This document shows, one piece after another, positions 17,168-44,711 of a stretch of 64,000 bases of DNA. How positions within the stretch are numbered: the stretch's first letter is position 1; the number at the start of each line of letters is the position of its first letter. Origin of the DNA: an uncultured Candidatus Peribacteria bacterium (GTDB taxonomy: Bacteria; Patescibacteriota; Gracilibacteria; BD1-5; UBA2023). A program made the position numbers and the translations under genes. The stretch lies in assembly GCA_964618565.1 (NCBI GenBank), contig CAZUBA010000001.1, forward strand, positions 20,998 through 84,997, written 5' to 3'. The notes below the pieces were generated by a model. It had not been told where the DNA came from. It worked only from the letters and a program-made list of their open reading frames with translations, and did no database searches.

Positions 17168-17231
17168 CAAAAATACTATATACAGGGGAATTATATCATA
17201 TTTTTTTGGATATAGCAAATGGTCAATTTTG

Positions 17232-18206
17232 TTACTTTTTTATTCTACTTTCTATCAATTTTATCAGATCTTCTTCGGAGTCAACTCACCTTAATTTACC
17301 CTTAATAGCTCAAAGTTTATATTCTGGCTTTCAATCATTCATCTCTGACCAATTCGTATCTGATAATAACTCTTTGAGTTTATTTTTGAATCATTTTAAA
17401 ATCATACCTTCATTTTCCTCTGAAGTTTCTACGAACACGGTATATTCTGCCTTAATGTCATTTGATAGGGCAGGGGTTGAAAAAATGAATCCTGAATATC
17501 ATATTTGAGCCAGTTCTTCACTTAGTAGCTTTTCAATTTCCTTAAACTTTAATTTTTTTATCCTAGCCAAATCCTCTTTTAGCTTATCTTTCTTATCGTG
17601 TTTCTCCATTACCTCCTTAAAATTATCTACAAATTGCTTGATATTATCCATTTCTTCCTTGTATTTGAGGGCTTCTTCATATGAAATGCAAAATATAGCC
17701 CTATCCTTTTCAAAATCAGGATCTTCTTCTTTTTTAAATTTAAGATCTATGACTTCCTTATCGCCCCATGAGCACTTAGGACATTTTTTAGTTATAATTA
17801 TAGAGTCTGTCTCTTTTTTGTTTTTACATATAAGCTCAACTCAGCATTTCTTACATAAATCCTTTTTGATTATATATTCTTCTCAATCATTGTAAATTGC
17901 TTTCCTTTTTTTACATGTAGGGCAATTAAATACAAATAGCACTCTATTCTGTTTTCAATCCTCCTCTCAAATGTATTCTTTGAAATCGAACTCCATCATT
18001 TCATAACATTCTAAACATCTTGTTTTTGGTGGAATAAGTGATTCGATGTATTCATCCCTCTTTCTATCCTTGTCCATCCATTCTTTGATAATTTCTTCCT
18101 TTTTCAAGGCTCTATCTGACATTTTGCTTTTAAGGTATATATTGTTTATATAATTTGCAGCCATTTGTTGTCCTTGGTTCCATTTTTCGCCATTTTTTGG
18201 TTTCAT
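17232..18206 (-). CDS. zinc-ribbon-containing hypothetical protein
   Basis: 324 aa, MKPKNGEKWNQGQQ... with CxxC pairs (RCLECY, CPTCKK, CKKCG, CPKCS). First gene of the minus-strand operon. Confidence 0.6.
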
Positions 18207-18451
18207 TGTATAAAATCTACACACTGAAACCGTTACTTTATCATACAGTTCATTGTAGTATGATCAATCTTTTAGATAGTTCATTTATATAAAGTTAATT
18301 AATAATTATTGCAATTTTATTATATACTATTGATTATTATTTTGGTCATATGTGTTTTGCTTTTTGATTATATTTTCATATACTTAAACGAAATATAACT
18401 TTTTAGAGCCCTTTGCAAGAGCTCTAATATTTATTAACCAATTGCTTTTAA

Positions 18452-20254
18452 ATGGAAGGAAATAATAATTGAAAGTATTTAATAAAAGAGGAGACTGTAA
18501 GCGGACTTACAACACTCCTTCTTGATATAAAGAATAATCACAATCAAGATGAACTAATTGAAAAAATAAAGGATCTAGAAACTCAAATATCAAAATTACA
18601 GAAGACAAAAAAATATTGATTAGTATGGGAAATGGAAAAAGAACCTGAACAAATAGTATTAGATTGCCAAAGGAAATTACCAATCTTGAAAGAAGTAAAA
18701 GATAAATTTCTAAAAAGTGATGAGTCGTGAAAAGCTAATATACTTATTGAATGAGATAATTTTCATGCCCTTCAGGTATTAAATTACACACACAAAGAAA
18801 GTATAGATTTAATATATATAGATCCACCATATAACACATGAAATGCAAATGAATGGAAATATAACGATAAGTATATTGATGATAATGATACATATAGACA
18901 TAGTAAATGGCTTAATTTTATGAGTAAAAGGCTGACTTTGTCTAAGGAACTTCTGAAAGAAAACTGATTAATTTTCATAAGTATAGACGATAATGAACAG
19001 GCACAATTAAAATTATTATGTGATGAAATTTTCTGATCAGATAATTTTATCGCTAATATTATTTGGCAGAGTAAAACTTGATCTAGTGACGCAAAGGGTA
19101 TAGATACGATTACGGAGTATATTTTGGTATATGCAAAAAATAAATTATTACCAGAGTTCACAAAAAATGCAGATTGATATGACAAAAAAAGATATAAATT
19201 AAGAGATGAATATTTTTCAGAAAGATGACCATACTATTTGGATAATTTGGATAGATGATGATTACGTTATCATGATTCACTAAATTACGCAATTTCAATT
19301 CCAGATTGAAGTAGCATATTTCCTAATTGAAGATCAGAATTTTTAAATGATGGATGGACCTGGAAATGGTGAAGGCAAAAGGTTAAATGGTGATTAGAAA
19401 ATGGTTACATTATTTTTAAAAAATCTAAATCTAAAAATAATTGATGGTGAGTTTATTATAAGAATTATTTATACTCTGATAATGAGGGTAATCTTCTAGA
19501 AAGATGAACTCCTCATAAAAATGTTATATCTAATTTAAAGACTTGAGATGGTGCAAGTTCAATAAAAAATATTTTTTGATTTCATGTGTTTAAATATTCA
19601 AAACCTACTGAATTGATAAAATATTTCATTAAGTCTGTTAATCTTCCAAAAGACGCAATTATATTAGACTACTTTGCCTGATCTTGAACAACTTGACACT
19701 CTGTATTAGAGTTAAATAAAGAATATTGATTAGATCTAAAATTCATTATTTGTACAAATAATGAATGAAATATTTGTGAAGAAGTTACATTCGAAAGAAT
19801 TAAAAAAGTTAGCAAAGGTTATTCTAATGACAAATGAGCTAAAACAGAATGATTAGGCTGAAATCTAAAATATTACAAAACCGATTTTGTAGAAGTAGAG
19901 AATGTTCAGTTGATTGATGATAAGCAAAAGTTAGAATTAACTTATAAGGCCTGAGAAGTAATAGCTATTAAAGAGTGAACTTATCATGAAATATCAAAAA
20001 CACCTTATTTTCAATTCTTTGAAAATAATAAGAAATTAGTGTGAATATATTTCATTGAAAGTTCAAAATGAATGGATCAATTCAAAAATACACTTAAGCA
20101 ATTAAGTAAATCAAAAAATGAAAGTGTTATTTATATATTTAGCTACTCTGAACCTGAATATTCTTGTAAGGATTTTAATGTGCCAAATTTGAGAATTGAG
20201 TGAATTCCAGAACCTATTTTAAAAATTTATAAGGAATTGAATAAAAAAATATAA
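18452..20254 (+). CDS. mod: type III restriction-modification methyltransferase (Mod, N6-adenine/N4-cytosine family)
   Basis: 600 aa: ...ANILIEGDNFHALQVLNYTHKESIDLIYIDPPYNTGNANEWKYNDKY...RHSKWLNFM...ILDYFAGSGTTGHSV... Confidence 0.9.
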
Positions 20255-20271
20255 TTAACAATTCATATTGT

Positions 20272-22014
20272 ATGAAAATTATTAATTTTGGTGTAAATAA
20301 TTTTAGATGAATTAACTGATGAATCGAAAATAATAGTATTAATTTTGATTGATCCAATACCTTATTTATTTTTTGACAAAATAATGCAGGTAAATCATCT
20401 TTTTTAAGAGCGTATGAATATTTTTATAATAATACAATTCCTGTTGTCGATGATTTTTATCTTAAGAATCCTGATAATAAAATTGAATTTGTGTTTGAAT
20501 TCGAATTAGATGTAGATGATTTGACAATAATTGAAGCAAGAGACCCTTCTAAGATGGTAAATTTCAGAACAAAATATCTATCAGCAGAAAACAAAGTTGT
20601 TCTAAGGAAAGTTTGGGCTAAAGAAGGTACTAAATTTAAAGATGATAATTTTACTTTCAATTGGACAACCTCTGTTGTAGATAATATTTGATATTGATGA
20701 TTTTGATTACATAATGTTTTTCAATCATGTTTACCTAAGCCAATATTTATAAGTGCATTACCAACAAAAAAAGAAACGGAAGATATTATTAATTCAATAC
20801 TTGAAGAAAAAGCTAAAAGTGTATTAGAAAATAGTGAATTACAAGAATATCAAGAATTAACCTGAAAATTGGCAAGCTTGCAAGAAAAGATGTATGACTC
20901 ATTGGTTATTTCGAGCTATAAAGAGGAAGTTAATGTTCATTTTTGTAAAGCATTTTCTGATATAAAGATTGAATTAACAGAGAAAGATCAAGTTAAGTAT
21001 ACTACAAAGTCTTTTTGAAAAAACTTTGAAATAGAGTTTCAAAGTATAAATTGATGAGAAATAAATTCCAATATTCCAACAAACTGGGACAAAATATGAC
21101 ATTGAGCCATTAGAACAGCAATATTCAACCTATTTTTAATGAAAGATATAGTTGAATGATTCGAAAGAAAAGAGACAAGAAAGGATTATTTAGTATTATT
21201 TGAAGAACCAGAATTATTTTTACACCCTAAGATATTAAGAATTATAAGAAAATTAGTTTATGAAGTTTCATGAGATTCTTATCCATACCAAATATTGTGT
21301 GCATCTCATTCACCTCAAATGATTGACATTTCAAAACCAAAAACATCGTTAATAAGAATGGTTAAAAATGAACAGACAAAACTATTTCAGATAAATGAAA
21401 GCATACTTGAACATGATTTTGAAAAAACTAAAGATGAAATTAAAGACGAAATGAATGAAATACTAAGATTTAATCCATTTATTTGTGAATCATTTTATGC
21501 AGATGAAGTAATACTTGTTGAATGACCCACTGAAGAATTAATAATAAGATGATACCTTAATATTAATGATGATTCGATTGATAAAGATGTTTTTGTAGTC
21601 AACTGTTGAACAGTAACTAATATACCTTTTTATCAAAAAATATTTTCAAAGTTTAATATAAAATACCATGTAATATGCGATACGGATAATGCAAGTAGTA
21701 GTTGAGTTGATACCTTTTGAAATACAATATATTCTTCTTGAATTCAAAAATCAATTTATGAACAATTTTATACTGATAAAAACTCAAGTAGTGAGAAGGC
21801 TTGAAAACTATTGCTTCATCATACAACGTTTGAACCTGCACATAGAGTGGAATCAGTGCCAGAAAGATTAAGAATGCCTTCTGGATATTTAGATTCAGAT
21901 TGAAAACCATTTAATGCTAATAGGTATTGGAAGGAAGTTTTAAGTTTGAATCTAAATGACTCTGAAATAGATAGGGTACCAATAATATATAATATTAAAC
22001 AAATAATTAATTAA
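20272..22014 (+). CDS. OLD-family ATP-dependent endonuclease (ABC-ATPase + Toprim)
   Basis: 580 aa. Walker A FGQNNAGKSS, Walker B LVLFEEPELFLHP, Toprim ADEVILVEGPTEE and HVICDTDN. It starts 17 nt after mod, and res starts 11 nt after its stop. Confidence 0.85.
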
Positions 22015-22025
22015 CCCACATAAAT

Positions 22026-24362
22026 ATGGAACTAAAAATATTTCAGCAAGAGACTTTAGCTGATTTAAGAAAAGCATTTTTGGACTTATGGAAAACTTGA
22101 AAAAGAAGTTTGCCACTAGTTTTCAAAGCTCCTACTTGAAGTGGTAAAACAATAATGACAGCTCAATTTTTAAAAGATTTAACAAATGATCCTCAGTTTG
22201 AAGCTGATATGTGTTATGTATGGATTAGTTTCTGAGAGGACCTAGTAATGCAGAGTAAAAAGAAGTTATTTCAGTATTACTGATGAGCAAGTTCAGTAAA
22301 TCTATTAGATCTGACAAGTCTGACAAACAAGAAGAAGCTGGAAAATAATAATGTGTTTTTTATTAACTGGGAAAAAATCAAATCATCAACGTCAGATTGA
22401 AGAAAATTAAGAAGAGAAACTGAAAAGACTCAATGAGATAAATGAGTTTTTGATGATTTTATACTTAAAACTAGGGAAGAGAGAGAAATTGTATTAATTA
22501 TTGATGAGGCACATGCTTGAAGTAAAACAGATTTAGCGCAAGAAATAATAGATTTAATAAACCCAAGAATTATTTTTAAGATTACAGCAACCCCAAGTGA
22601 TCAAGAAGAGCTGGATGCAAGAAGAAGTTGAAAATATATCGAAGTTGAAAGACAAAAAGTCATCGAGGAATGACTTATAAAAGAAAAGATAGTTACTCAG
22701 ACAAAAGAAGATTTAGATAAAATATCAAAATTGGAGTTAGATCAAGATATATTGCTTCTTGAATTAGCTTATAATAAGAGAAATGAATTAGTTGAGGATT
22801 ATAAAAAACTTTGATTGAATATTAATCCTCTTGTTCTTATACAGTTACCAAATGATGATAAGGCAACAAATGAAGTTCAGGCCAGAACCAAGCTTGACAT
22901 CGCAAAAGAATATCTAACAAATAAATGAGAAACAGATAATAATGTTGCAATTTGGTTAAGCGAAAAGAAAGAAAATCTTGATGAAGTTGAAAAAAACAAT
23001 TCAAGCGTAAATTTCTTAATATTCAAACAGGCAGCTGCAACATGATGGGACTGCCCAAGAGCAAGCATATTGGTTATGTATAGAGAAATCAAAAAGCCGG
23101 ATTTTCATACTCAGACAGTTTGAAGAATTTTGAGAATGCCTCTTTGATATCATTTTGATATTCCTGAAATGAACGTTTGATATTTATATACAAACTACGA
23201 AAGAAATCAGGTTCATTTGCCTGATAGTAATAAGTTATGAGATAATAAGCCATATATCTACATTTCGACAAAAAAAGACGAAATAGACCCTATTATTCTT
23301 CAATCTACATTTTTATGAAGGGTTGATTATAATGATATCTGATGAACACAATTTGAACCTACTTTATTCGAAAACTTTAATGAATATTTTGGCATTAACG
23401 AAAGTGACATTTTATGAAAGGCTAAAGATAAAATCAAATCCAAGTGATTAGATATTGAAAACACAAAAATCACCTACAATATGATCATTGATGTTGAAAT
23501 CGAGAATTATGATGATTTTATTAGAGAACTTCAGGATAAATGAAAAGATATGCAAGCAAACTTATCAATAATTGATATTGAAAGATTGTATAATCTTGAA
23601 TTATTTAATTTCATTGCTCACCAAGATCAAGAAAATAGAAAATATGCTCCTGAAAGATCTTGGTCAGCAGTTAAAAAAGCCCTTAATGTATGGATGAACT
23701 CGTATGTATCTGAAGATAGGAGAGAGTTTTATAAAATAATTGTAAATGATTTTAGAAAGTCTGACAGTGTACTTAAAAAAGTATTATGAGAAACTCTGGA
23801 GAAATATAAACCAATAAGACAAATAGAGGTACAGGAGAAGGAGAAAAGATCAGAAAAGAAAATAGACTTAAACGTTCCAAGGAGAGAAACTTTTTATACC
23901 GATGATTATAAGGAATTTAATGATTTCAAAATTCAAAAAAGTGCTACAGAGCCTTTTTATTTACCAGATAGCTACTCCTGAAGGGTTAATGAAGTTGATT
24001 TTATTAAATATGTGGAAGGTTCAGAGAATGTAGTCTGGTGGTACAAAAATGGCCAAAGTTGATCACAAAATTTTTGAATTAAAAGAATTTGAAAAGATGC
24101 ATTATTTTATCCAGATTGGATAGCAAAACTATCAAACGGTAAAATATTAATTGTAGATACAAAAGATTGAGTTACTGCTAGAGATCCTGAAACAATAGAT
24201 AAGGCGGATAGTCTTCAAAAATGGATAAAAGAAACAGGGAACAAGAATATTATCTGAGGAATTGTTGTAAAGGTGGGAGATATTTGGAGAGTTAACAATA
24301 AAGAGATCTATAAATTTGATGATAATTACTGAGAGTTTATATACTTAAATGACTTATTCTAA
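22026..24362 (+). CDS. res: type III restriction enzyme Res subunit (DEAD/DEAH helicase-nuclease)
   Basis: 778 aa: ...VFKAPTGSGKT..., ...LIIDEAHAG..., ...FKITATP..., ...QAAATGWDCPRA..., ...TVGRILRMP... Confidence 0.9.
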
Positions 24363-24430
24363 ACTTCTATTGAAAAGTTTGGGAAAAGATAAAATGATCA
24401 GCCACTCCAATTGTTAATAAGAGTGATTAG

Positions 24431-24598
24431 GAAGGTATAGCTATTCTAGCTCCACCTCTAAATGAACAAAAAAGACTTGTTAACAAGATTGAAGAATTAA
24501 TGAAATATTGCGATGAACTTGAAAAGCAAATTTTAAATGCGAGAAATAATTCTGAAAAGATAATAGAATGAGTATTGCAAGAAGTATTTAAACATTAA
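24431..24598 (+). pseudogene. remnant of a type I RM specificity subunit (HsdS C-terminal conserved helix)
   Basis: No start codon, and the frame opens right after a TAG. Encodes ...ILAPPLNEQKRLVNKIEELMKYCDELEKQILNARNNSEKIIEGVLQEVFKH*, the typical HsdS end. Confidence 0.6.
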
Positions 24599-24610
24599 TA
24601 TTATATCTTC

Positions 24611-26110
24611 ATGGAAGAAATAAATTTTAAAATATACTTTTCAGATTTCTTTGAAGTAAGTCATGAAAAGATTGAAAAATATTGAGCACTTGATATTTCT
24701 CTCCTTTGTGATAATCCTGCTTTTGTTGACCCATTTCTAATATTTTTTAGTAGTAAGCCAGAATATAAAGAATTACATAAGAATATTATTGATTATATCT
24801 CATACTTAAAAGAAAAGTCTGATGAATGAAAGTTCGAAGAAAGAAATGCTATATTCTCAGAAGTTAAAGAGGTATGGTTATGATTTTCAAAAAACTCTAA
24901 TCTTTGAATATGACTAAATAAGCATTTTGCTAATGAACTGAAAAATAACCTAAGTTCGTTACTAAATAGCGGAGGAGGTATAACAAAAAGTTCACATTTA
25001 GAAAAGTTATGCTTGATTTGAGATAGAGTTTGAGCAGATAAGATAAGCGATTTTACGATTAATCTTATCAAATCTTTCTTGATTGATTATACTCAAAAGT
25101 TTGCAGAGAAAAATATAGATGAGAAGTTTTTTTGCGATTTTAATATACCAAGATCAGTATTTGATTATAGTTTCTGAGAATGGAAAAGTAAAACTGCTAA
25201 ACTTCCTTTTATAATAAACAAGAAAGGTAAAAAGGAATTTGTTTTGCTGACGCCAAAGGATATTCTCGTAAAAGAAAATGGATGGATAACAAAAAACGAT
25301 TATTTAGATCAAGACACTACAATAATCGATAAGATATCCAATACAGAATTAAAAGAAAGAATTAATAAATATTTCATCTGACTAATGCCGAAAAAGAGAG
25401 ACAAGAAAACTGGGGAAATAACTATTGATGATAATAAGGCAAATAGGCAGAAGGCATTGATATGAACTACCTTTCAATATCCTGTATTATTGGATTATTA
25501 TATCAAGGATAAAGAAGAAAATTGAGATAAATCACTAATTAATAACGTTTTTGATACGACTAATATAGAGACCTATCTATACAAATCTGTTAAAATTGCG
25601 ATTGATGATCTTAATAAAAAACAATTTTATGAAAAACAAATTACTTCATTTGAAGAAGTAGTAGAGAAGGTTAAGGTATTTAAGCATTATCTTGAAGATC
25701 GAGATGGATATAAGATTTTCTGGGATTGAGAAGAATTGAAAGTAAAAGAAAATGATGCTCAAATTATGCTTGATTTGATATTTAGCCCATCAAGCTTTTC
25801 TGTTGATAAGGAAATAAATAATTGAAGATGACCTGTTGATTTAAAAGTTTCAAAATGAAAAGACAGCACTTTAATAGAAGTAAAATTGGCTTCAAATTGA
25901 CAAATTAAAAGTAATTTGCAAAAACAATTAGATATATATAAAAAGGCTGACTGAACTGATAATTGAATATATGTTATATTATATTTTAAAGATAGTGAAT
26001 TATCTAAATTAAATATAATTCTAAAAGAAGTTTGATTGTCTGAATATATAGATAAAAAAGTATTCTTAATTGATTGCAGAAAGAAATTGTCAGCTTCAAA
26101 AGTTAAATAA
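24611..26110 (+). CDS. hypothetical protein with C-terminal PD-(D/E)xK-like nuclease motif
   Basis: 499 aa. C-terminus is ...NNGRGPVDLKVSKGKDSTLIEVKLASN... (D...E-x-K). Checked codon by codon for TAA/TAG. Confidence 0.7.
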
Positions 26111-26126
26111 TTAGTTAATTTATAAT

Positions 26127-27290
26127 ATGAAAAACAAACCAAATAAAGAACATATAATTGCACAAAAAGATGAATTAATATCAGAATTCACCTCTCGTTA
26201 TTGGATGCTTATGACTTTCATATTTATTCTTTATGGAGCTATGTGATGGAAAATTTGGCAGAATTTCGATTGATTAGCTAAGTTTTTTGATACATTTAAA
26301 TTTTCAAATTCAATAATCAATAAATATCTGATAGATAATGTTGAAATTTTAATATCCTTTGGCGTTGTATATTTCACAACTTTGGCTTTCTGGAAATTTA
26401 AAAAAGGTTTATTTAATGATTCAGAATATAAAATAAAATTTTGGTCAGGAATACTTGTCCATAGGTTATTCTCAATGGTAATTCTGTCACCATTCATAAT
26501 TTATTTATTGAATAAAACTATCCCAAACGGTGAATACCATATATTTTGGCTTATAGTCGCCTGATTGTTTTATTACTTATTACCATTATTTTTCTCTATT
26601 TGAAGCAAACAAAGAAAAAAGATTACCGATAATAAGTGTGTATTCCTTTTGATTTGCACAATAATGATTTTTATTATTTATTTGTGTTTTTATATAAATG
26701 GCTTTTGGGAGCCAATGATAATTTTATTTGTATCTTGAATTATCTTTCCATCATCAGACTCTCTTTTAAGGTCATATATAGTATCAATTGATAATTTCAA
26801 TTCTATTGAAAAAGTTCATCAAATTAGCTCCGAATATACTAAAAGTTTAAAAGATTGAACAGTTTGAAGTAAGATTACAAACTTCATTTTAGCAATTGAA
26901 ACAACAGAAGAAAATCCTGTATCACTACCACTCGCTTTCGAAAGTCTTGAAATATTATGAAATATGGCTATTGCATGAGCTTTCTGAATAATTGCTCTTG
27001 TATGGTTTTATGATGCAAATATAATTACAGCATTATATATTCATATTACGCTTGTTGTATCAGCCCTTCACCTATGGCTTATATCAAACAAATTTCCTAA
27101 TATAATAGATATTAAAGCTGATTGAGAATGGTATAATTGAGTATTTTTATTAGAACGTTCAGAGGATAAAATCCTAATTATGAATAAAGAAGGAAAAATA
27201 TTATTTAAACCTGATATTGTTTCTGAGATAAGAATGCCTTTTAAACTTATACAAAAAGAAGAAATTATTAATAAAAAATCACCAAAATAA
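26127..27290 (+). CDS. polytopic membrane protein, unknown family
   Basis: 387 aa with multiple hydrophobic helices (e.g. YWMLMTFIFILYGAMGW, CVFLLICTIMIFIIYLCFY, MAIAGAFGIIALVWFY). Starts 16 nt after the previous stop. Confidence 0.7.
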
Positions 27291-27292
27291 TC

Positions 27293-29089
27293 ATGCCGAA
27301 TCTAATAACAAAATCACTATATGTTGACTATCATGAAAGCAATAAACTTGCGTGGTGGAAGATTAACAACCTTCAAACATATAAATTCATAAAATGAATT
27401 GAAGATGAAGAGGAATGAGAAGATCTTAATGTAAAATTAGGTCAGAAAGTAGAAGATGTGGTTGGTGAATATCTTTTCAGGAAGTTCTGAACTAAAAGAA
27501 CAAATGTTTTTGAAGAAGTAAAATTCAGCGAAAACGTAGATGAAGAACAAGAAGATATAATCCTTACTACATATAAGAATGGTATAGATTCAAACATTAA
27601 GAGAACAGAGGAAGCAATTAAACAAAGGGTTCCTATAATTTATCAAGCTTGATTTATATATAATGGGCTTTTTTGTAGAGTTGATTATCTTGTTTTAAAT
27701 TCAAATTGAAATTATGACTTAATAGAAGTTAAAGCCAAGACATGAGTTAGGAAAGATAGGACTTATAAAAAGGTTCCAAATAAATGAGCTTGAAATCTTG
27801 AAGATGTCTATTTAGCAGACATATCTTTTCAGAAATATGTAATTACAAAAGTCTTTGAAGAAAAAGGTCTTTGAATATTAGAAAACAAATATTTTGCTTA
27901 TCTAAACAATAAATATGTAAGGGATTGAGTGTTGGAAATTGAAAAACTAATAGTTTTGGATCGAGTCGATTGTATAAATGAGATACTTCTTATTTGAGAA
28001 GATGACGATAAGAAGGAAAACAGAGATGATAGCTTACAGCATTTCACATGAATTGAAGAATTAGTAAAAACCCTTGAAATAGACATAAATTTATCCGAAG
28101 AAGAATTCAATTCAAAATACCCTTTCAGTTGAAGTAAATACCTGACATATTTTTGAAAGGATAAGCCTTTCTGAACGATATACTGAAAATGACTTACTCA
28201 TAATTGTGTATGAGCTCTTCATCAATTATGAAAAGTCAATCTCGAAGATTTATGTGATGAAGAAGTATGTATGTTTAATAAGGCTGACTGAACAGTATGA
28301 ACAGCAAGAAAATTCGTGGATAATTATCTGCTTTGTAAAACAAACAGGACTTGCATTATAGAGAAATGAGATATCAAGTGAGAGTTAAATAATCTCAATT
28401 ATCCACTATGTTTTTATGATTATGAAACAGTTTCAGTTCCTATCCCATTTCTTGATAAGACTTCTCCATATCAGCAGGTAGTTGTTCAATACTCTCTGCA
28501 TAAGGTTTATGAGAATTGAGATATCAAGCATTATAGCTGAATACTTGCTGGAACATGAGAACAAAAAATTGAGCTTTTGGAAATAAAAGATAATAAGAAT
28601 AAGGTTGATTTTGAAAATGAGAAACTCATATATTGAGATTATAAAGATGTTCTCATGGCCTTGAAGGATGATATTTGAGAAGATATTGATAGAAGTAGTT
28701 TTATAGTATGGCACAAGCCTTTCGAAAATACAAGAAATAAGGAAGTAGCTCAAATATTCCCGGAATTAGGCGATTTCTATTTGAAGATGAATGATAATAC
28801 TTATGATTTGAAGGAGATCTTTTCTAAATGATTGTATTTTTCTCTTGATTTCAAGGGGTCATGCTCGATTAAGTATGTTTTACCTGCATTAGTGCCTGAA
28901 CTAAGCTATGTATGAATGAATGTTCCAAATTGACTTGTAGCCATGAATGAATTGAATAGAATTATAATCTGAGAAGTTAAAGATGATAATGAAAAACTTC
29001 AAAAACTTACTGACCTACTTTTGTATTGCTGACAAGATAGCCTTGCAATGTTTAAAATATATGAAAAAGTTTTAAGTGTATTAAAATAA
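27293..29089 (+). CDS. DUF2779-like protein (RecB/Cas4-type PD-(D/E)xK N-domain + DEDD-like exonuclease-fold C-domain)
   Basis: 598 aa: ...FCRVDYLVLNSNGNYDLIEVKAKT..., ...PLCFYDYETVSVPIPF...PYQQVVVQYSLH..., ...LLLYCGQDSLAMFKIY... Starts 2 nt after the membrane gene stop. Confidence 0.75.
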
Positions 29090-29112
29090 TTATTTCTTAA
29101 TTAACAAAAATA

Positions 29113-30882
29113 ATGATAAATAGTGCCAACAAATATACAATAGCTCAAATTTTTTGAGATGATCCTTCTGTTAAATATACCATTCCAAAATATCAAAGAG
29201 AATATACTTGGAATAAAGATAATTGGGAAGAATTGCTTAATGATATTCAAGAAAATGAATGAAACCATTTTATCTGATCCATTATCTGTATAAATAATTG
29301 AACAGATACCCTATCAACACCAATGCTTGAATTAGTTGATTGACAGCAGAGGCTATCAACTGTTTCTTTGTTATATTGTGCAATACATAAGCTATTATCA
29401 GACAAAAATACCGAGAATGACGAAGATCTTAAAATGGAATTACATATATTAAAGCTTAAACTTATAAATAAGAAAGATTCTAAATCTAAAATGGAATTAT
29501 CACATCAAAACAATAACTTCAATGATTACAAATGAGTATTGAATGAAATCTGATTATTGAAATTTGGTGAAGAAGTTAAAAACAAGTGAAATAGAAAGAT
29601 ATTCAAGGCATTTAGATTTTTTACTGAAAAATTAAGTATCCTTTCAGTTGATGAATTGTTAGAACTTTTAGGAAAAACAAACAATACCTTACTTGTAAAA
29701 ATAGAAGTAAACTCTCATTCTGATGCATTTATGCTTTTTGAGAGTTTAAATAATAGATGAGTGCCACTTTCTGCAATTGATCTAATTAAAAACAAGCTTC
29801 TTGCAGAAGTTGAAAAAAACAAAATTATGGATATTGATGAAGCATTTTTGGACTGGAACAAGATTATCAATAATCTTGATGAATATTCTATACAAGAAAG
29901 ATATTTAAGGCAATATTACAATGCATTTAAATTTGACGAAAGAATAAAAGTAGATTGACAAAGCAAAGCAACAAAATCTAACCTTATCAAGATATACGAA
30001 ACCCTTATTAATAGAGATATAATATATATATTTAGTGAATTAATAGAAAAATCAAGTATCTACCATGATTTAATGCTTCCTAATGAGTCTGAAAATACGC
30101 TTATTAAATGATTACGAAACGAATTAATTGATTTGAATCATGTTAAGGCTGCACCTTCTTATCTGTTTTTACTATATGCTTTTTCTTTCAGTAAAGATAG
30201 AGATGCTGATTTCTATAAAAAAACGGTAAATTTGCTTGTTAAATACTTCATACGCAGGAATATTACAGATTTTCCTAATACACGCAATTTGGACCAAATA
30301 TTCATTGATTTAATACAAGAAATTAATCAAGATATTAACAGATTGAATTTTGAATACATATCTGAATATCTCACTCATCCTTCAAGATATTCTGACGATG
30401 ATAATTTTAAAAAACATCTAAATTGAGACTTATATGAAACAAATATTGATGCTACGCGTTTCATTTTGAGCAAAATAGAAGAATCAAAGAGAACAAAAGA
30501 AACTAAAACTGATTTTTGGCAAAGTGATGATAACAAGAAATTAGTATGGACCATAGAACATATATTTCCTGAATGAAAGAATATTCCGAAAAGTTGGATA
30601 GATATGATTGCAGAATGAAACAAAGAGGAGGCCGAAAGAATGCAAACAGATCTTGTTCATAAGATATGAAATCTTACTTTGACTTGATATAATCAAAACC
30701 TTTCAAACTTTGATTTTGTAAAGAAAAGAGACAGAAAAGATAACAATGATAATTTTATATGATATAAAAATAATCTTTTCTTAAACGAAGATGTTGTTAA
30801 TAAGGAATCTTGGATCAAAGAAAATATTCAAGAAAGAACGGAAAAGTTGGTAAATATTGCATTGGATATATTTAATATATAG
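29113..30882 (+). CDS. GmrSD-family type IV (modification-dependent) restriction enzyme, DUF262 + DUF1524
   Basis: 589 aa: ...IPKYQREYTWNK..., ...LVDGQQRLSTVSLL... (DUF262), and C-terminal ...WTIEHIFPEG...LVHKIGNLTLTGYNQNLSN... (HNH-like DUF1524). Confidence 0.85.
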
Positions 30883-30929
30883 ATCTTAACTTTGTTAAAG
30901 TAATTATATTAGCATTTAATAAATCTACA

Positions 30930-32147
30930 ATGGTAACACACAATCCAAAGCAAATTATAGAACAACTACAGACAATACTAAGTAACCCTTCCAAAAAAAT
31001 ATGATTTCTTTTTGGTGCCTGAATTTCAATGAAAGATATGAGCTGAAAGGATTTAATTCCAGGAGTTGATATTATGACGGATACTGTCATTAAGAAATTT
31101 ACAAAAGACCCTCAAAGATCAGCAATAGAGGTAATAAAAACTGAAATCATTTCTGATTGAAAGAAATTCAATATAGAAACTCTCTTATCAAAAATTTCTG
31201 AAAAAGAAAGAGCTGCATGAGCTGAAAAGTTGTGTTGATTAAGTAAACACGAATTAGAAATATTAAGAAAAGATATCGAAGATGATATATGCAAACAAGT
31301 GTCTATTCATGAACCAGCTTCTGAAAAAGTTAATGTTGAGACAATTAATCATAACACTTTTGCAAAATGGATTAAAAATGCAGACAGAGAATTTCCTGTT
31401 GAAATTTTTACTTTAAATTATGATTATCTTTTAGAACTATCTTTGGAAAATCAAGGAATTCCTTATTTTGATGGCTTTGTGGGTAGTTATAATGCTTTCT
31501 TTTGTCCAGAATGGATTGAAGATGGTTCTCCCGTAAGAGATTGGGTCAAATTATGGAAATTGCACTGATCACTTGGTTGGAGTCAAAATGAAAAGAAAGA
31601 TATCATAAGGACTTCCTGAGCTGCTTGAACCTCAATGATATATCCTTCATTTTTAAAATATGACCATTCAAAAAAACAGCCATATCTCAGTTATATGGAC
31701 AGATTGTCTTATTTTTTAAAGCAAGAGGATGCAGTTTTGTTTACATGCTGATATTCATTCTGAGATGAACATATTAACGAATTGATATTAACTGCTGTTT
31801 CACGTTCAAGATCTTCTAGTGTCTTCGTACTTAATTTTTGAGAATTAGAAGAAACTGACGAGTTGCCAAAAATTGCTATGAATAATACAAAAATATCTGT
31901 ATATGCAAAAAGGACAGCAGTTATAGGATGAAAATTTTGAGAATGGAAATTAGATTGAGAGCCAGATAAAAATGTTTCGTATAATGTTATCGATTTTGGA
32001 TTTGATGAAGATGCAGTAATGGAGGAAGAATGAAAAACAAATACATGGACGGGTAAATGAAATTTTTGGCTTGGTGATTTTAATAAATTCACAAATTTTT
32101 TATCCCATTTTTATTCTAAATCCAAATATATAAAAAATGATAAATAA
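30930..32147 (+). CDS. SIR2-family protein (SIR2_2 type) of a SIR2-HerA pair
   Basis: 405 aa: ...IGFLFGAGISM..., ...IFTLNYDYLLE..., ...LWKLHGSLGW..., ...LFTCGYSFGDEHIN... Confidence 0.85.
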
Positions 32148-33924
32148 TGAATCTTTTATATGAAAAGTGCGAAGTGTCACTTGAGGTGTACTTGCAATTG
32201 AATTAGATGAGAATATTCGCTCTACTCTGCCTGTAATTGATTGAATATTATACAGAGTATGACAGATAGGTTCTTTTATCAGAATTCCGTTCGGTTACGT
32301 GGATTTATTTGGTGTTGTCACTCAGGCATGATCAGATGCTATACCAGAGAAATTAGTCTGACAAGATAATGCAAAAGGTTCTCGTTGGATAAAAGCAACA
32401 TTGATTTGAGAAAAAATTGGTAGTAAATTTGAAAGATGAGTTATCCAGTTTCCAATAGCAGATGATGAGGTACATTTAGTAACAAAAGATGACCTAGAGG
32501 TTATATACTGATGATTTGATGAGAATAAATCAATTGTTGTAGGACAAATAAGCGCTTCTGAAAATTTAAGTGCAAGAATAGATATTGATCGTTTAATAAA
32601 TCGTCATTGTGCAATTCTATGATCTACATGAAGCTGAAAGTCAAATACAGTTTCGGTCTTATTAGAATCTATAGCTTCAAGAATGGACATTGATGGCAAT
32701 CCTTATAATAGCACAAGAATCTTATTAATAGATCCGCATTGAGAATATTGAGAAATTCTGAAAGAATATAGTCAAGTATTCAGAGTAGGGTCTAATTCTG
32801 AAAATGGAGAACAAGAACTGGTTATCCCATATTGGGCATTACCTTTCCAGGAATTTATAAAAAGCTTCCCTTGAAACTTAAATGAAAAACAAGAAGAATA
32901 CATTAGAGAAAAAGTTTTGCAGAAAAAAATTGCATCAGCTAAGAATTTGACGAATCCACCTGAAGAAGAAGCTATAACTGCAGATAGTCCAATACCATTC
33001 AGTATCAATCAATTATGGTTTGAATTAGATGATTTCGAAAAACAAACATATAGCGAAAGGGCTAATACCGAAACAAAAACCTTGGATGAAGAAGATTTAG
33101 GAGATGCTTCAATTTTAAAATCAAATAAATATAAGCCTGCTGGTAATGGCTGAGCTTCTCCTTTTATGAATAATTCAGCACAAGGCATCTGATCATTTTT
33201 ATATTTGATGAGAAATAGACTATTAGATCAAAGATTTAAATTTCTATATGAACTCGGTGAATTAAAGCCAGATTTAGAAGGTAAAATTAAATGAGATTTA
33301 GATACCCTTATTCAAAAATGGATTGGGACAGATAAACCAATTACAATATTAGATTTATCTAGCGTTCCATCTGAAATCATGTGATCGGTCTCATGATCAT
33401 TACTTTCAATTATTTATGAATTCTTATACTGGTGACAAAATTCTGATGTATGATGAAGAGAAACACCCATTTTATTTGTATTAGAAGAAGCTCATAATTA
33501 TTTGAAATCCGGGGAGAATTCAATTGCATCTAGAACCGTTCAAAGAATAGCAAAAGAGGGAAGAAAATATTGATCATGACTTTTGTTGGTTACCCAAAGA
33601 CCATCTGAGTTAGATGAAACAGTCCTGAGTCAATGTTGATCAGTAATTGCACTAAGAATGACTAATTCAAATGATAGAGGACATATAAAAAGTGCAGTTG
33701 AAGATTCTTTGTCAGACTTAGTTGATTTATTACCAAGCCTAAGGACTGGAGAGTGATTAATAATGGGCGAGTGTGTTAAATTACCAATGCGTACAAAATT
33801 CAATAAAGCAAAGGAATCTAAAAGTACAGATCCTCTTGTATCTGAAAAATGGAAAAAAGAATTGCCAAAAGCCGAAAACTATAAGAAAGTAGTTGATCAT
33901 TGGCGAAATAATAAGTTTTCTTAA
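32137..33924 (+). CDS. herA: HerA-like ATPase (DUF87) of a SIR2-HerA pair
   Basis: 595 aa. Walker A HCAILGSTGSGKSNTV (all three Gly of GSTGSGK are TGA), Walker B ILFVLEEAHNY, ...RKYGSGLLLVTQRPSEL... The ATG overlaps the SIR2 3' end by 11 nt. Confidence 0.9.
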
Positions 33925-33941
33925 TTTTTAATATTATTACT

Positions 33942-34160
33942 ATGGAAATCGAAATGATTGCAGTTTCATCATCAAATATCGAATCTATTTGATATGATTC
34001 TAAAACCGAAACTTTACATGTTTTGTTTTTAAACTGAACAAAATATGAATACAAAGGAGTTCCTGAGACAATTTATGAACAACTCATGAAAGCCCCCTCT
34101 CATGGTTCATTTTTAAACAGAGAAATCAAATGAAAGTACCCTTACGAAAAAATTTGATAG
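33942..34160 (+). CDS. KTSC-domain protein
   Basis: 72 aa: MEIEMIAVSSSNIESIGYDSKTETLHVLFLNGTKYEYKGVPETIYEQLMKAPSHGSFLNREIKGKYPYEKIG. Starts 17 nt after herA. Confidence 0.7.
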
Positions 34161-34191
34161 ACTTTCTATATAAAATTAAATTATATATAAA

Positions 34192-35085
34192 TTAATTTAT
34201 ATATTCTTTATGAAATTCAAGATAGCTAGCAGAACATAAATCTTCTAACTTAAAACCTATTTTTTCAGTTATTAAATTTTTCGCTATTTCACTATCATGA
34301 ACGTAATTAAAGAAAAAAACTTCAGGACTTGTCATAATTCAGAAGCCAAATAATCGCTGTACATATGAATAATAACAAGGGTAATCATCGATTTGATTAA
34401 TGATTCTTTCTTTAATTGGTCATTTTTCAAAATCATCTCAGATAGCTATATTGATTAATCTCGCTATTACATGGATGCAGATATCTATAAGCACAACTCC
34501 CTCTACAAATTCCTCTCTTATAAATCTCAAGTCAAGATCGTTAATTCAGTTATGTATATAATTATGGGATAAGTATTTATATATTCCATAAACAACATCT
34601 TCATGAATTGGATATTTCGACAATTCGGGCTCTTTTACATAGGATATTTGTCAGAGTTTAAATATTCATTCTACTTTAGTTCTACAATTCCTTTCCTCTT
34701 TCCCTGAAAGATGATTATAAAGCCAATTAATATTTTTTTCATAAAAGCTCCTTAAATGTGTTCATGCACTTGTGTAGTATCAAGAGCACAGCATTTTAAA
34801 ACTTAGATGTAGGTCGTCATAGGCCTGTATGATTAGCTGATGATTATCACTGTTGATATTCTTGTCTCCTATAAATCTATCTACCATCTCCATGAGAATC
34901 TGATAATTGTAAAAAGTCCAGTCCAATCATCTTAATTCCCCGAAAATCACTTTTTGTTCTTTTGCAAGAGTTTTAAAGGATTGTTTAAATATTGCTCATT
35001 CTTTTTTGTGCAGTTCTTGGACTTTTTTATATGTAGAGATAAATTTTTCTCTTGGTGGCAACCTTGAAATAAATGTGATTCACAT
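34192..35085 (-). CDS. hypothetical protein
   Basis: 297-aa code-25 ORF MGITFISRLPPREKFISTYKK... No motif recognised. Confidence 0.55.
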
Positions 35086-35206
35086 ATGCTATTTGTTATT
35101 TTTAAATAAGACTAACTGTTAGTGCTTATTATAGTTAAAAGTGCCTAACGGCAAATTATATATTTTAGGCTTAGTTAGGATATTACAGATTCAGTGGAAT
35201 TTTATT

Positions 35207-35812
35207 CTAAACCTGTGATTCAGTTATATTTTCTAATAATGGAATTGCTACAATTTCTAGTTCTTTTTCAACAGTAGATTCTATTTCCTTTGGTTCTTCA
35301 TTTATTTTTAATTCTTTCGAAGGGAATAATTCAGAGAAAGTATATTTCTTTGCTGTCTTATATCTGATAAATTCAATATTCATTGTATCAAATAGTTTGT
35401 TCTTAAATATATCTCATTTCTTTTCCTTATCATGAGTGCAATCATCTAATTCAATACAAAACTTTAATTTTCAGTTTAAATCAGATATTACAAAGTCAAT
35501 ATGCTTCGCTTTTATCTTCTGAAACATACCAAAGGCGATCTTGTCTTTTTTCTGGTCTCTTACTCAGAAGATATCTGCCAATCTAACTTTTGATAGTAGG
35601 ATTACCTCTTTATCTGCAAGATATTCTTCTAACTGCCTATAGAAATTCAGCTCATTAGGGGTAAAGAATATTTTTTCATATACAAACTTCTTTATTTCCA
35701 ATGATTCTTCATCAATTTCTTCTCAGGAATTAAGCTTTTTCAAAAAGCTTATAATTTCTGCAACAGCAAAGATTATTACTAATAATATTGCAAGTGTATA
35801 TATAGGATTCAT
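35207..35812 (-). CDS. DUF2726-domain protein (restriction-endonuclease-like fold) with N-terminal TM anchor
   Basis: 201 aa: MNPIYTLAILLVIIFAVAEII..., ...FFTPNELNFYRQLEEYL...LLSKVRLADIF...HIDFVISD...FCIELDDCTHD... Confidence 0.7.
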
Positions 35813-36388: not shown

Positions 36389-37057
36389 ATGAATAATAAA
36401 CTCTACCATTCTTCATTGATTAAGCTCATTCCCATTGAATACAATATAGCTTGCAAATATCTTGCAATCCGTACCAGGAATATAGGCAATCTTCAGCTTG
36501 AGACGACAACAAATAATTTTTACAGCCAAGCATGACTAAGCACATATCAATGTTTTCAGAATATTACTGGTTTGAAGCCTTATCTTACAGATAGATTACA
36601 ATATTTTCTGATTCAATCAGAACTTCTAGGGAATACCATAGCTATTGCTGGTGAAGGTGTAGTTGTTTCAAATCAAAAAGCACTTCATTCGATCGTAAGT
36701 CGCAATAATACTGTAGCATTATATAAAGCAATGAATTGAGATGTGATATTATTTGATCAGCAATTTACTTATAAATGACTATTAAAGCCAGATGGAATCG
36801 TTTTGAAAAATGATCGTTTGGTTGTATTCCAGGAAACTGATTGTGCTTCTCAAAGAGTTCGTGTCATAGCAAATAAAGCTAGCATTTACCTTAAGTTTAT
36901 CACTGAGATGATAAATGAATGATACTCAGCCAAAGATATTCGAATTGTGTTTTTTACGACAAATATAAAACGAATCAAGATGCTTTTGAATCTGTGAGTT
37001 TTTTCAAAACTTCAGACATTATGAGTCATTAAGTTTGCAATTAATAATTTGAATTAA
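36389..37057 (+). CDS. Replic_Relax-like (replication-relaxation family) protein, tentative
   Basis: 222 aa. C-terminal half ...KPDGIVLKNDRLVVFQETDCASQRVRVIANKASIYLKF... resembles the PDG...(E/D)xD...K..Y core of that family. The assignment is by eye only. Confidence 0.45.
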
Positions 37058-44040: not shown

Positions 44041-44058
44041 CTTTAACATAAAAATACT

Positions 44059-44651: not shown

Positions 44652-44665
44652 TTGACATTTAATAA

Positions 44666-44697: not shown

Positions 44698-44711
44698 TTT
44701 ATCAAAGCACT

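What the first reader, a model, noticed from the sequence alone, without database searches (positions are those of the whole stretch)
24611..29089. Uncharacterised three-gene operon (PD-(D/E)xK protein, polytopic membrane protein, DUF2779-like nuclease/exonuclease) embedded among known defence systems
Three co-oriented genes with 16-nt and 2-nt spacers sit between a type III RM and GmrSD/SIR2-HerA. Gene 1 (499 aa) ends in a PD-(D/E)xK-like motif (GPVDLKV...LIEVKLA). Gene 2 (387 aa) is a multi-pass membrane protein with no recognisable family. Gene 3 (598 aa) has a RecB/Cas4-like motif (RVDYL...LIEVKAK) plus a DEDD-like exonuclease region (FYDYETVSVPIPF...YCGQDSLAM), as in DUF2779. I do not recognise a two-nuclease-plus-membrane architecture as a named defence system. 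The genomic context (guilt by association) makes an anti-phage role plausible. This is my best candidate here for an undescribed system.
Basis: inference. Interest (0 to 1): 0.75.

Follow-up and report, generated by a model that had tools for sequence, protein, structure and literature searches.

The report
Three unrelated defence-island genes, not one system
The three neighbouring genes are real and sit in an anti-phage defence island of a Gracilibacteria genome that reads TGA as glycine, but each turns up elsewhere without the other two, so they look like three separate cargo genes rather than a new three-part defence system.

Summary
With TGA read as Gly (code 25), three co-oriented ORFs lie at 24611-26110, 26127-27290 and 27293-29089. 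They sit between a type III R-M (with an embedded OLD nuclease) and GmrSD plus SIR2-HerA.

- Gene 1 is a DUF8370/DUF8371 protein with an unknown N-terminal domain and a C-terminal PD-(D/E)xK nuclease. The family has over 2,000 members and is often embedded in or abutting type I R-M operons. None of 92 loci has gene 2, and one has a DUF2779 about 8 kb away.
- Gene 3 is a DUF2779 dual nuclease (Exo5/Cas4-like plus DEDDy 3'-5' exonuclease). None of 48 loci carries gene 1 or an adjacent gene 2.
- Gene 2 is a rare polytopic membrane protein confined to TGA-recoded lineages. Its neighbours differ in nearly every one of nine contexts.

Tight spacing is normal here: the median co-oriented gap is 22 nt.

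Two leads remain. Gene 3's subfamily sits just downstream of R-M modules (16/22 loci upstream versus 1/26 downstream, p=5e-7). A gene 2 relative abuts a DUF2779 gene once more, in the reverse order.

The parts
24356..24598 (+). HsdS (type I R-M specificity subunit) pseudogene fragment in the 248-nt gap before gene 1
   Evidence: A code-25 blastx of 24301-24620 hits the HsdS of L003 (31% over 86 aa, E 5e-5 in a small database). The frame is broken by a stop (…KSD*EGIAILAPPLNEQKRLVNKIEELMKYCDELEKQILNARNN…).
24611..26110 (+). Gene 1: a 499-aa DUF8370/DUF8371 protein with a conserved N-terminal region of about 370 aa of unknown fold and a C-terminal PD-(D/E)xK nuclease (D410, E423, K425, Q439)
   Evidence: Code-25 ORF. 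The window's own protein P0001 carries PF28123 and PF28130. PADLOC PDC-M36A matches residues 10-251 at E 6.8e-24. phrog_30194 matches full length at E 1e-27. Invariant residues come from alignment A2. In the AF2 model of a 55%-identical homologue, only the C-terminal 120-140 aa match NucS, SfsA, Can2 and Cas4-family nucleases.
26127..27290 (+). Gene 2: a 387-aa polytopic membrane protein (about 6 strongly predicted TM helices) with a conserved soluble C-terminal tail of about 65 aa; a rare family confined to TGA-recoded lineages
   Evidence: Hydropathy analysis. No Pfam, NCBIfam or PHROG family. Two non-self hits among 5.8 billion proteins. 18 hits among 1.84 billion representatives, none of the ten scanned having a Pfam domain. 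Alignment with conserved motifs FWEP..LFVSG..FP and HLWLISNKFP.
27293..29089 (+). Gene 3: a 598-aa DUF2779 dual nuclease with an N-terminal Exo5/Cas4-like PD-(D/E)xK site (D131, E145, K147) and a C-terminal DEDDy 3'-5' exonuclease site (D376, E378, D505, Y578, D582)
   Evidence: Pfam PF11074 at 92.9 bits. Invariant residues from alignment A1. The AF2 model of a 55%-identical homologue (pLDDT 91.2) matches B-family polymerase exonuclease domains (prob 1.0) and Exo5/Cas4. The literature gives the same two-domain reading (PMC13621843, PMC3985635).
18452..24362 (+). Upstream type III R-M module (Mod 18452-20254, embedded OLD-family nuclease 20272-22014, Res 22026-24362). It is the R-M module that gene 3 trails, as in related genomes
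   Evidence: PADLOC hits: MTase_III E 1.6e-97, Old E 2.7e-58, REase_III E 4.9e-18. L016 carries Res at 59%, Mod at 44% and DUF2779 at 55% identity to the window's copies.
29113..33924 (+). Downstream known defence genes: GmrSD-like (29113-30882), SIR2 (30930-32147), HerA (32137-33924)
   Evidence: PADLOC hits: Orf5/HEC-06 E 4e-74, SIR2 E 5e-113, HerA E 6e-152. A DUF2779-GmrSD adjacency also occurs in L021.

Best explanation
The region is a mosaic stretch of a defence island in a Gracilibacteria genome (genetic code 25). Three independent single-gene modules have come to lie side by side inside one long co-oriented gene array. Gene 1 is a member of a widespread, self-contained family (DUF8370/DUF8371) that usually rides inside or beside type I R-M operons. 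Here it arrived with a piece of such an operon, of which only an HsdS fragment remains. I infer that it acts as a one-protein sensor-plus-nuclease: the conserved N-terminal domain senses or binds something, and the C-terminal PD-(D/E)xK domain cuts nucleic acid. Gene 3 is a DUF2779 dual nuclease (a Cas4/Exo5-type 5' end nuclease plus a DEDDy 3'-5' exonuclease). In Gracilibacteria and Absconditabacteria its subfamily is typically placed just downstream of an R-M module of any type. I infer that it degrades linear DNA ends, most plausibly those made by restriction. Gene 2 is a rare lineage-restricted membrane protein that appears in defence islands and mobile elements next to ever-changing partners; its role is unknown, possibly a membrane effector or an exclusion protein. 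What is shown: the gene models, the code, the domain and active-site conservation, the lack of conserved three-gene co-occurrence, and the R-M associations. What is inferred: any anti-phage activity, the substrates, and co-transcription.
For: Gene 1 family contexts:
- It lies between HsdM and HsdS (L003-5), after HsdR (L001), and after HsdR-HsdM/S (L009, 88% identity).
- At least 22 of 92 further loci have type I genes within 10 kb, often 2-10 nt away.
- 272 of 389 neighbouring ORFs are singletons, so there is no constant partner.
- No gene 2 relative occurs in any of these loci, and one DUF2779-like ORF lies about 8 kb away.
- DNA homology to the closest relative (86%) starts only 32 nt before the gene 1 ATG, and the upstream sequence differs. 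An HsdS remnant lies upstream in the window.

Gene 3 family contexts:
- There are 48 loci. None has gene 1, and one has a gene 2-like ORF 8.6 kb away.
- 187 of 262 neighbours are singletons.
- The recurrent neighbours are type IIG, type I and type III R-M genes.
- In the long subfamily an R-M gene lies within 5 kb upstream in 16/22 loci and downstream in 1/26 (Fisher p 4.6e-7). It is co-oriented in 12/16.
- Several MAGs carry 2-3 copies.
- Plasmid DUF2779 genes in other phyla trail Qat, NERD/AAA and AAA-ATPase modules.

Gene 2 family: nine distinct contexts with different partners, namely a protease, an OLD-ATPase plus UvrD pair, HsdR-SMEK_N, RPA-HNH, and HTH-Panacea.

Spacing and signals:
- The median co-oriented gap is 22 nt.
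- No + strand terminator occurs anywhere in 17000-35500, and promoter-like hits are at chance level.
- So nothing sets the three genes apart from the six known defence genes in the same array.

Active sites are conserved and the folds are confirmed.
Against: - The three genes are packed tightly (16 nt and 2 nt) and are very probably co-transcribed, so a functional interplay in this particular genome cannot be excluded.
- A gene 2-family member is directly adjacent to a DUF2779 gene a second time (L153/L154, 19-nt gap, opposite order). A third lies 8.6 kb from one (L012). That is 2-3 of 9 gene 2 contexts, more than expected for unrelated genes unless both simply share the same islands.
- The downstream side of the two closest relatives (gene 1 at 88%, gene 2 at 84%) is cut off by contig ends, so the most informative comparisons are missing.
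- My R-M detection used a limited seed set, and many contigs are short, so the frequencies are lower bounds.
- No experiment shows defence activity for any of the three families.
Confidence: 0.75

Rival explanations
1. The three genes form a true, lineage-specific three-component defence system, recently assembled: gene 1 (nuclease) and gene 3 (dual nuclease) work with the membrane protein gene 2 as sensor or anchor.
For: Tight co-oriented packing, with gaps of 16 nt and 2 nt. Defence-island setting. No internal terminator. The identical arrangement is on record on 2-3 contigs carrying the identical proteins.
Against: The trio is found nowhere else: 0/48 DUF2779 loci and 0/92 gene 1 loci. The 84% gene 2 relative is preceded by a protease, not gene 1. 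The 75% gene 3 relative directly follows HsdR. The MAG holding the 88% gene 1 relative has its detected DUF2779 on another contig, at only 43% identity. The same tight spacing joins all nine genes of the array, which include at least three unrelated known systems.
Confidence: 0.07
2. Genes 2 and 3 are a functional pair (a membrane protein plus the DUF2779 nuclease), and gene 1 is an unrelated neighbour.
For: The gap in the window is 2 nt. A second, independent adjacency exists in L153/L154: the DUF2779 C-terminus (E 3e-52) lies 19 nt upstream of a gene 2-family gene. L012 has both within 8.6 kb.
Against: The gene order is reversed between the two cases. None of 48 DUF2779 loci has an adjacent gene 2-family ORF, even with a family profile. 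No polytopic membrane protein of any kind sits immediately upstream of DUF2779 in the 27 long-subfamily loci that have a called upstream neighbour. Gene 2 relatives occur without DUF2779 in L007, L152, L155-157 and L159. Both families live in the same kind of island in the same lineages, which by itself raises the chance of adjacency.
Confidence: 0.12
3. Gene 3 is a housekeeping DNA repair or recombination nuclease that only happens to lie in the island, and the region has no special defence meaning.
For: The DUF2779 homologue MMSYN1_0389 is quasi-essential in the minimal cell JCVI-syn3.0 (PMC13621843). A DUF2779 gene was hit in a Mycoplasma bovis fitness screen (PMC7373297). A shorter paralogue of about 512 aa in the same lineages has recurrent non-defence neighbours such as YceI and an amidase.
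Against: The long subfamility to which gene 3 belongs is multi-copy in some MAGs, has highly variable neighbourhoods, and has a strong polar association with R-M genes that the short paralogue lacks (16/22 versus 1/7 upstream, p 0.011). Plasmid copies sit in defence clusters.
Confidence: 0.06

Closest known systems
DUF2779 (Pfam PF11074; RNase H-like family F.17 of Majorek et al. 2014; MMSYN1_0389 of JCVI-syn3.0)
   Same: Gene 3 scores 92.9 bits. It has the same two-domain build reported in the literature: a Cas4-like PD-(D/E)xK domain followed by a DEDD(h/y) 3'-5' exonuclease, with all catalytic residues invariant and Tyr in the 'h' position.
   Different: Gene 3 belongs to a subfamily of about 595 aa limited to Gracilibacteria, Absconditabacteria and similar lineages. 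This subfamily is multi-copy and sits just downstream of R-M modules. That context is not described in the seven papers that mention DUF2779. No function has been tested for any member.
Cas4 / Exonuclease 5 (RecB-like PD-(D/E)xK end-processing nucleases)
   Same: The fold of the gene 3 N-terminal domain matches human Exo5 (7lwa, prob 0.98) and Cas4 (4r5q, 4ic1). The D...ExK motif is conserved.
   Different: There is no conserved four-cysteine Fe-S cluster: no invariant Cys in the N-terminal domain. There is no CRISPR-Cas context. The domain is fused to a DEDDy exonuclease.
PADLOC candidate PDC-M36 (Payne et al. 2024 bioRxiv, 'guilt-by-embedding'; three-gene cassette FAM_01399>>FAM_00303>>FAM_00303)
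   Same: Residues 10-251 of gene 1 match the PDC-M36A profile at E 6.8e-24. Like the PDC candidates, the gene 1 family is found embedded in type I R-M operons.
   Different: Only the first half of the 457-position profile is matched. Genes 2 and 3 do not hit any PDC-M36 model. Gene 1 relatives have no constant partner gene. PDC-M36 itself is an untested candidate.
Single-gene systems embedded in type I R-M operons (e.g. PrrC, named by Payne et al. as almost exclusively embedded in type I R-M)
   Same: Gene 1 relatives lie between hsdM and hsdS or abut hsdR/hsdS within 2-10 nt. An hsdS remnant precedes gene 1 in the window.
   Different: There is no sequence relationship to PrrC. The effector is a PD-(D/E)xK nuclease, not an anticodon nuclease. 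Many gene 1 relatives are not next to a detectable type I system.
NucS/EndoMS, SfsA and Can2-type PD-(D/E)xK nuclease domains
   Same: These are the best structural matches of the gene 1 family's C-terminal domain (prob up to 0.97).
   Different: The E-values are weak (about 0.03) and cover only about 120-140 residues. The N-terminal region of about 370 residues has no structural or sequence match in the PDB or BFVD.

Membership tests
Multi-gene defence system (any) | The component genes co-occur, adjacent and in conserved order, in multiple unrelated genomes | tested here: not met
   None of 48 DUF2779 loci has gene 1 within 10 kb or an adjacent gene 2. None of 92 gene 1 loci has gene 2, and one has a DUF2779 about 8 kb away. 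Across nine gene 2 contexts, gene 1 is the neighbour only in the window.
DUF2779 (PF11074) | Pfam model hit above the gathering score | tested here: met
   Gene 3 residues 373-525 score 92.9 bits against a cut-off of 23.3, E 2.5e-26.
DUF2779 (PF11074) | N-terminal PD-(D/E)xK (Cas4-like) catalytic D...ExK motif | tested here: met
   D131, E145 and K147 are invariant in 39 sequences. The fold matches Exo5 and Cas4 (on a 55%-identical proxy).
DUF2779 (PF11074) | C-terminal DEDD(h/y) exonuclease acidic residues plus Tyr/His | tested here: met
   D376, E378, D505, Y578 and D582 are invariant in A1. D460 is invariant in A1 and nearly invariant in A4. The fold matches B-family polymerase 3'-5' exonuclease domains at prob 1.0. 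The residue-to-motif assignment is by position and the literature pattern, not by superposition.
Cas4 proper (CRISPR-associated) | Four conserved cysteines binding an Fe-S cluster, and a cas/CRISPR context | tested here: not met
   There is no invariant Cys in the N-terminal domain of A1 or A4. No cas genes were found among the neighbours.
DUF8370/DUF8371 (PF28123/PF28130) | Both Pfam domains assigned to the protein | tested here: met
   The precomputed Pfam hits on the window's own protein P0001 and on all 120 listed homologues are PF28130 and PF28123. The local Pfam copy lacks these models, so I could not rescore them.
PADLOC PDC-M36 | A full-length match to PDC-M36A plus the partner genes of the cassette | tested here: not met
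   Only profile positions 8-241 of 457 are matched by gene 1. Genes 2 and 3 hit no PDC-M36 model.
PD-(D/E)xK nuclease superfamily (gene 1 C-terminus) | A D...(D/E)xK motif on the characteristic alpha-beta-beta-beta-alpha-beta core | tested here: met
   D410, E423, K425 and Q439 are invariant in 35 sequences. The model shows the core at residues 383-492 and matches NucS, SfsA and Can2. Catalytic activity was not tested.
Type I R-M-embedded accessory gene (gene 1 in this window) | It lies inside an intact type I R-M operon | tested here: not met
   Only an HsdS pseudogene fragment precedes gene 1. No hsdM or hsdR lies in 17-35 kb. Relatives elsewhere do meet this feature.
Anti-phage defence gene (any of the three) | Protection against phage shown experimentally | not testable with these tools
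   No experimental report was found for DUF8370/8371, PDC-M36 or DUF2779.

The most novel reading that the evidence does not exclude
The long DUF2779 subfamily (gene 3) may be a general 'restriction follow-up' nuclease. It would be placed at the 3' end of type I, IIG and III R-M modules, and with its paired 5'-end (Exo5/Cas4-like) and 3'-5' (DEDDy) activities it would destroy the linear DNA ends that restriction creates. That is a role RecBCD/AddAB plays in other bacteria. It would give a first functional handle on DUF2779, a family that is quasi-essential in the minimal cell JCVI-syn3.0. A weaker add-on is that the gene 2-family membrane protein is an occasional partner of this nuclease.
Probability: 0.2. 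Interest if true: 0.6.

Novelty: new member of a known kind. Interest (0 to 1): 0.3.

Why it matters
It removes a false lead. The apparent 'two nucleases plus membrane protein' system is an accident of island packing in a compact genome.

It also leaves three concrete things to test:
1. Gene 1 belongs to a very widespread, strongly conserved protein family with more than 2,000 clusters across many phyla. The family has a structurally unmatched domain of about 370 aa fused to a nuclease, often rides with type I R-M, and has never been tested.
2. A DUF2779 subfamily shows a sharp, directional association with R-M modules. This gives a testable idea for a family whose function is an open question in minimal-genome biology.
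3. Public protein sets hold these Gracilibacteria proteins with Trp where Gly belongs. This weakens homology and structure work on the whole lineage.

Tried and rejected
- Table-11 ORF calling gave no genes here, so I switched to code 25.
- Code 4 (TGA = Trp) was rejected by column counts.
- Repeats around the genes gave only short, low-identity AT-rich matches and no element boundaries.
- Promoter and terminator scans were at chance level and did not help define transcription units.
- Profile searches of both nuclease families against PDB sequences found nothing significant. Only fold comparison worked.
- GenBank phages hold neither gene 1 nor gene 3, despite PHROG and IMG/VR hits.
- The literature has nothing on PDC-M36, DUF8370 or DUF8371 by name. 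The supplement of Payne et al. gives only the cassette composition.
The models are therefore of 55%-identical homologues (P0014 and P0126), not of the window's proteins.
- A weak PADLOC hit of gene 2 to CARF_TM (E 0.003) and weak NCBIfam hits (EruA C-terminus for gene 1, UU173 below cut-off for gene 3) were not taken as assignments.
- I considered whether non-homologous membrane proteins generally precede DUF2779. They do not.
- Neighbour sequences of the gene 2 relatives were extracted for a PADLOC scan, but I did not run that scan.


Full report
**1. The observation**

Under the standard bacterial code the region has only short ORFs. Treating TGA as a sense codon raises the longest ORF in the window from 248 to 974 aa. 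They are separated by 16 nt and 2 nt.

TGA is glycine. At eight TGA positions of gene 1, 105-107 of 107 aligned homologues have Gly, whereas the TGG positions align with Trp. The only tRNA in the window is tRNA-Trp(CCA), which fits code 25 and not code 4. The closest named relatives are from Candidatus Gracilibacteria.

The flanking genes are as described: type III Mod, an OLD-family nuclease, type III Res, then after the three genes a GmrSD-like enzyme, SIR2 and HerA.

**2. What each gene is**

*Gene 1.* It has no hit in my Pfam copy. The window's own protein and all listed homologues carry the recent Pfam entries PF28123 (DUF8370) and PF28130 (DUF8371).
- The family is large: 2,126 hits among the scored candidates and at least 560 metagenome loci. 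It spans CPR bacteria, Gammaproteobacteria, rhizobial plasmids and others.
- It is strongly conserved, with 56% mean column identity.
- The C-terminus has invariant D410...E423-x-K425...Q439.
- An AlphaFold model of a 55%-identical homologue (pLDDT 83.7) matches PD-(D/E)xK nucleases (NucS/EndoMS, SfsA, Can2, Cas4-family) only over its last 120-140 residues.
- The first 370 or so residues match nothing in the PDB or in viral predicted structures.
- Residues 10-251 match the PADLOC candidate PDC-M36A (E 6.8e-24). This is an untested candidate from the 'guilt-by-embedding' screen of Payne et al..
- The match covers only half the profile, and the partner genes are absent.

*Gene 2.* It has about six strongly predicted TM helices plus a conserved soluble tail of about 65 aa. 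It has no family in Pfam, NCBIfam or PHROGs. It has only two non-self relatives among 5.8 billion proteins. An exhaustive HMMER search of 1.84 billion representatives found 18 hits; those whose sequences I inspected look like they come from TGA-recoded genomes, and none of the ten I scanned has a Pfam domain.

*Gene 3.* It is a clear DUF2779 protein (92.9 bits).
- The alignment shows invariant D131, E145 and K147 in the N-terminal half. It shows invariant D376, E378, D505, Y578 and D582 in the C-terminal half.
- The model of a 55%-identical homologue (pLDDT 91.2, pTM 0.85) matches the 3'-5' exonuclease domains of B-family polymerases (prob 1.0). It also matches Exo5 and Cas4 nucleases.
- This agrees with Majorek et al. 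2014 (PMC3985635) and with the 2026 analysis of the quasi-essential MMSYN1_0389 (PMC13621843).

**3. Do the three genes travel together? They do not.**

*From the gene 3 side.* A scan of one genome per GTDB species gave 48 loci, all in Gracilibacteria, Absconditabacteria or similar lineages. After code-25 gene calling, none has a gene 1 relative within 10 kb. Only L012 has a gene 2-family ORF, 8.6 kb away. This held when I searched with a family profile.

*From the gene 1 side.* There are 92 further loci, 80 from metagenomes and 12 from IMG/VR. None has a gene 2 relative. One (L149) has a DUF2779-like ORF about 8 kb away.

*From the gene 2 side.* There are nine distinct contexts:

| Locus | Arrangement around the gene 2 relative |
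|---|---|
| Window | gene 1 → gene 2 → DUF2779 |
| L008 (84% identity) | trypsin-like protease → gene 2 → contig end |
| L007 (44% identity) | OLD-ATPase + UvrD-like → gene 2 |
| L012 | 8.6 kb from a DUF2779 |
| L152 | HsdR-SMEK_N → gene 2-like → 1253 aa-Mrr |
| L153/154 | DUF2779 → gene 2-like |
| L155-157 | RPA-HNH → gene 2-like, in a mobile-element-like run of small genes |
| L158 | short contig |
| L159 | next to HTH-Panacea |

.

*Closest relatives of genes 3 and 1.* The closest gene 3 relative (75%) directly follows HsdR of a type I system. The closest gene 1 relative (88%) follows HsdR-HsdM/S and another gene. DNA homology to the window begins only 32 nt before the gene 1 start codon.

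**4. Why they look like an operon**

Tight spacing is the rule in this genome. The median gap between co-oriented neighbours is 22 nt, and 18 of 34 gaps are 25 nt or less. The three genes are part of a nine-gene co-oriented array (18452-33924) that includes at least three unrelated known systems. No + strand terminator-like site occurs anywhere in the array, and promoter-like sites are at chance level. The only sizeable gap, 248 nt before gene 1, holds a broken HsdS fragment. This fits gene 1 having come from a type I R-M setting. Composition and TGA usage are similar across all nine genes.

**5. What the contexts do say**

*Gene 1 family.* Members lie between hsdM and hsdS, or abut hsdR/hsdS within 2-10 nt. 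This holds in at least 22 of 92 loci and in four of five look-ups. There is no constant partner: 272 of 389 neighbours are singletons. A plasmid copy is flanked by transposases. This fits a self-contained single-gene module. I infer an N-terminal sensing or binding domain coupled to a nuclease effector, possibly acting as a modification-dependent or abortive-infection nuclease. That is inference only.

*Gene 3 subfamily.* Neighbourhoods are very variable (187 of 262 neighbours are singletons). The recurrent neighbours are R-M genes: type IIG Eco57I/MmeI-like, HsdR, type III Mod/Res and C5 methylase.

The association is directional. An R-M gene lies within 5 kb upstream in 16 of 22 loci, but downstream in only 1 of 26 (Fisher p 4.6e-7). 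The nearest upstream R-M gene is co-oriented in 12 of 16. A shorter paralogue of about 512 aa lacks this pattern (1 of 7; p 0.011) and has recurrent non-defence neighbours.

The window fits the pattern. Type III Res ends 2.9 kb upstream of gene 3 and is co-oriented with it. L016 carries Res, Mod and DUF2779 at 59%, 44% and 55% identity to the window's copies. L021 shows Mod-Res-three other genes-DUF2779-GmrSD, a layout much like the window's but with different inserted genes.

On plasmids of Aliarcobacter, Selenomonas and Helicobacter, DUF2779 genes also trail defence modules: QatABCD, NERD/AAA, and an AAA ATPase.

I infer that this dual nuclease acts on DNA ends, plausibly those produced by restriction. 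That has not been tested.

**6. Residual doubt**

A gene 2-family gene is adjacent to a DUF2779 gene twice: in the window, and in L153/154 in the opposite order. A third instance lies 8.6 kb from one. From the DUF2779 side this is rare (0 of 48 adjacent), and gene 2 relatives occur without DUF2779. I therefore read it as shared island residence. I give a gene 2-gene 3 pairing about 0.12. The downstream flanks of the closest gene 1 and gene 2 relatives are cut by contig ends, which limits the test.

**7. Comparison with known systems, and verdict**

Gene 3 is a member of DUF2779. It is not a Cas4 proper, because it has no conserved 4-Cys cluster and no cas context. Gene 1 is a member of DUF8370/DUF8371 and is only partly related to PDC-M36A. 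Gene 2 is a rare orphan family. The trio does not meet the defining feature of a multi-gene system.

Novelty: new members of known, uncharacterised kinds, in a mosaic defence island.

Interest is modest. The proposed new system is not supported. The R-M-trailing position of a DUF2779 subfamily and the widespread, untested gene 1 family are reasonable experimental leads.

Limits: the structure models are of homologues, not of the window proteins. R-M detection used a limited seed set. Many contigs are short. Nothing here is experimental.

Noticed in passing
window 8524-10299: A large serine recombinase (Resolvase plus Zn_ribbon_recom; 8542-10299, minus strand) overlaps the 3' part of tRNA-Trp(CCA) (8524-8598). 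GC falls from about 0.33-0.345 to 0.26-0.31 beyond it. This looks like the edge of an integrated element that may carry the whole defence island. L001 (gene 1 relative, 70% identity) also has a large serine recombinase about 7 kb away.
   Followed up: partly
window 24356-24598: An HsdS (type I specificity subunit) pseudogene fragment lies in the gap between type III Res and gene 1. It is a trace of a lost type I R-M operon.
   Followed up: yes
window 20272-22014: An OLD-family nuclease (PADLOC Old, E 2.7e-58) is embedded between the type III mod and res genes, with gaps of 17 nt and 11 nt. It is another example of a defence gene nested inside an R-M operon.
   Followed up: no
window 41128-51646: A tandemly duplicated cassette. 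Two paralogues of about 970 aa (41128-44040 and 45888-48794) have 63 TGA codons each and near-identical N-termini. Each is followed by a TM protein of about 160 aa (44059-44562, 48814-49299), and a third small copy lies at 51167-51646. I did not annotate these.
   Followed up: no
window 35207-35812 (minus strand): A DUF2726 protein (PF10881, E 1.6e-18) lies just past the SIR2-HerA end of the island. The genes at 34192-35085 and 36389-37057 have no Pfam family.
   Followed up: no
database entries P0001, P0121, P0124, P0122, P0125 and others: Public protein sets hold the window's proteins and many Gracilibacteria homologues translated with TGA as Trp (code 4) instead of Gly. The result is 19, 12 and 33 wrong residues in the three proteins and W-rich consensus sequences. 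This systematically degrades homology and structure work on these lineages.
   Followed up: partly
L016 9269-11788; proteins P0133 and P0145: Some gene 3 relatives are called as proteins of about 840-854 aa with an N-terminal AbiEii (PF08843) part fused to DUF2779. This may be a real fusion with a toxin-type nucleotidyltransferase, or a merged gene call.
   Followed up: no
L152 4487-13795: A distant gene 2 relative sits between a 1156-aa SMEK_N-domain protein and an unannotated 1253-aa protein, flanked by a type I R-M and an Mrr-like nuclease. This is an uncharacterised island in another recoded genome.
   Followed up: no
L160 (Aliarcobacter cryaerophilus pACRY43158) 6821-8320: A DUF2779 gene starts 1 nt after the last gene of an annotated Qat system (QatC, TatD/QatD). 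It is followed by an AAA protein, a hypothetical protein and a dGTPase. This suggests that DUF2779 trails defence modules well outside the CPR lineages.
   Followed up: partly
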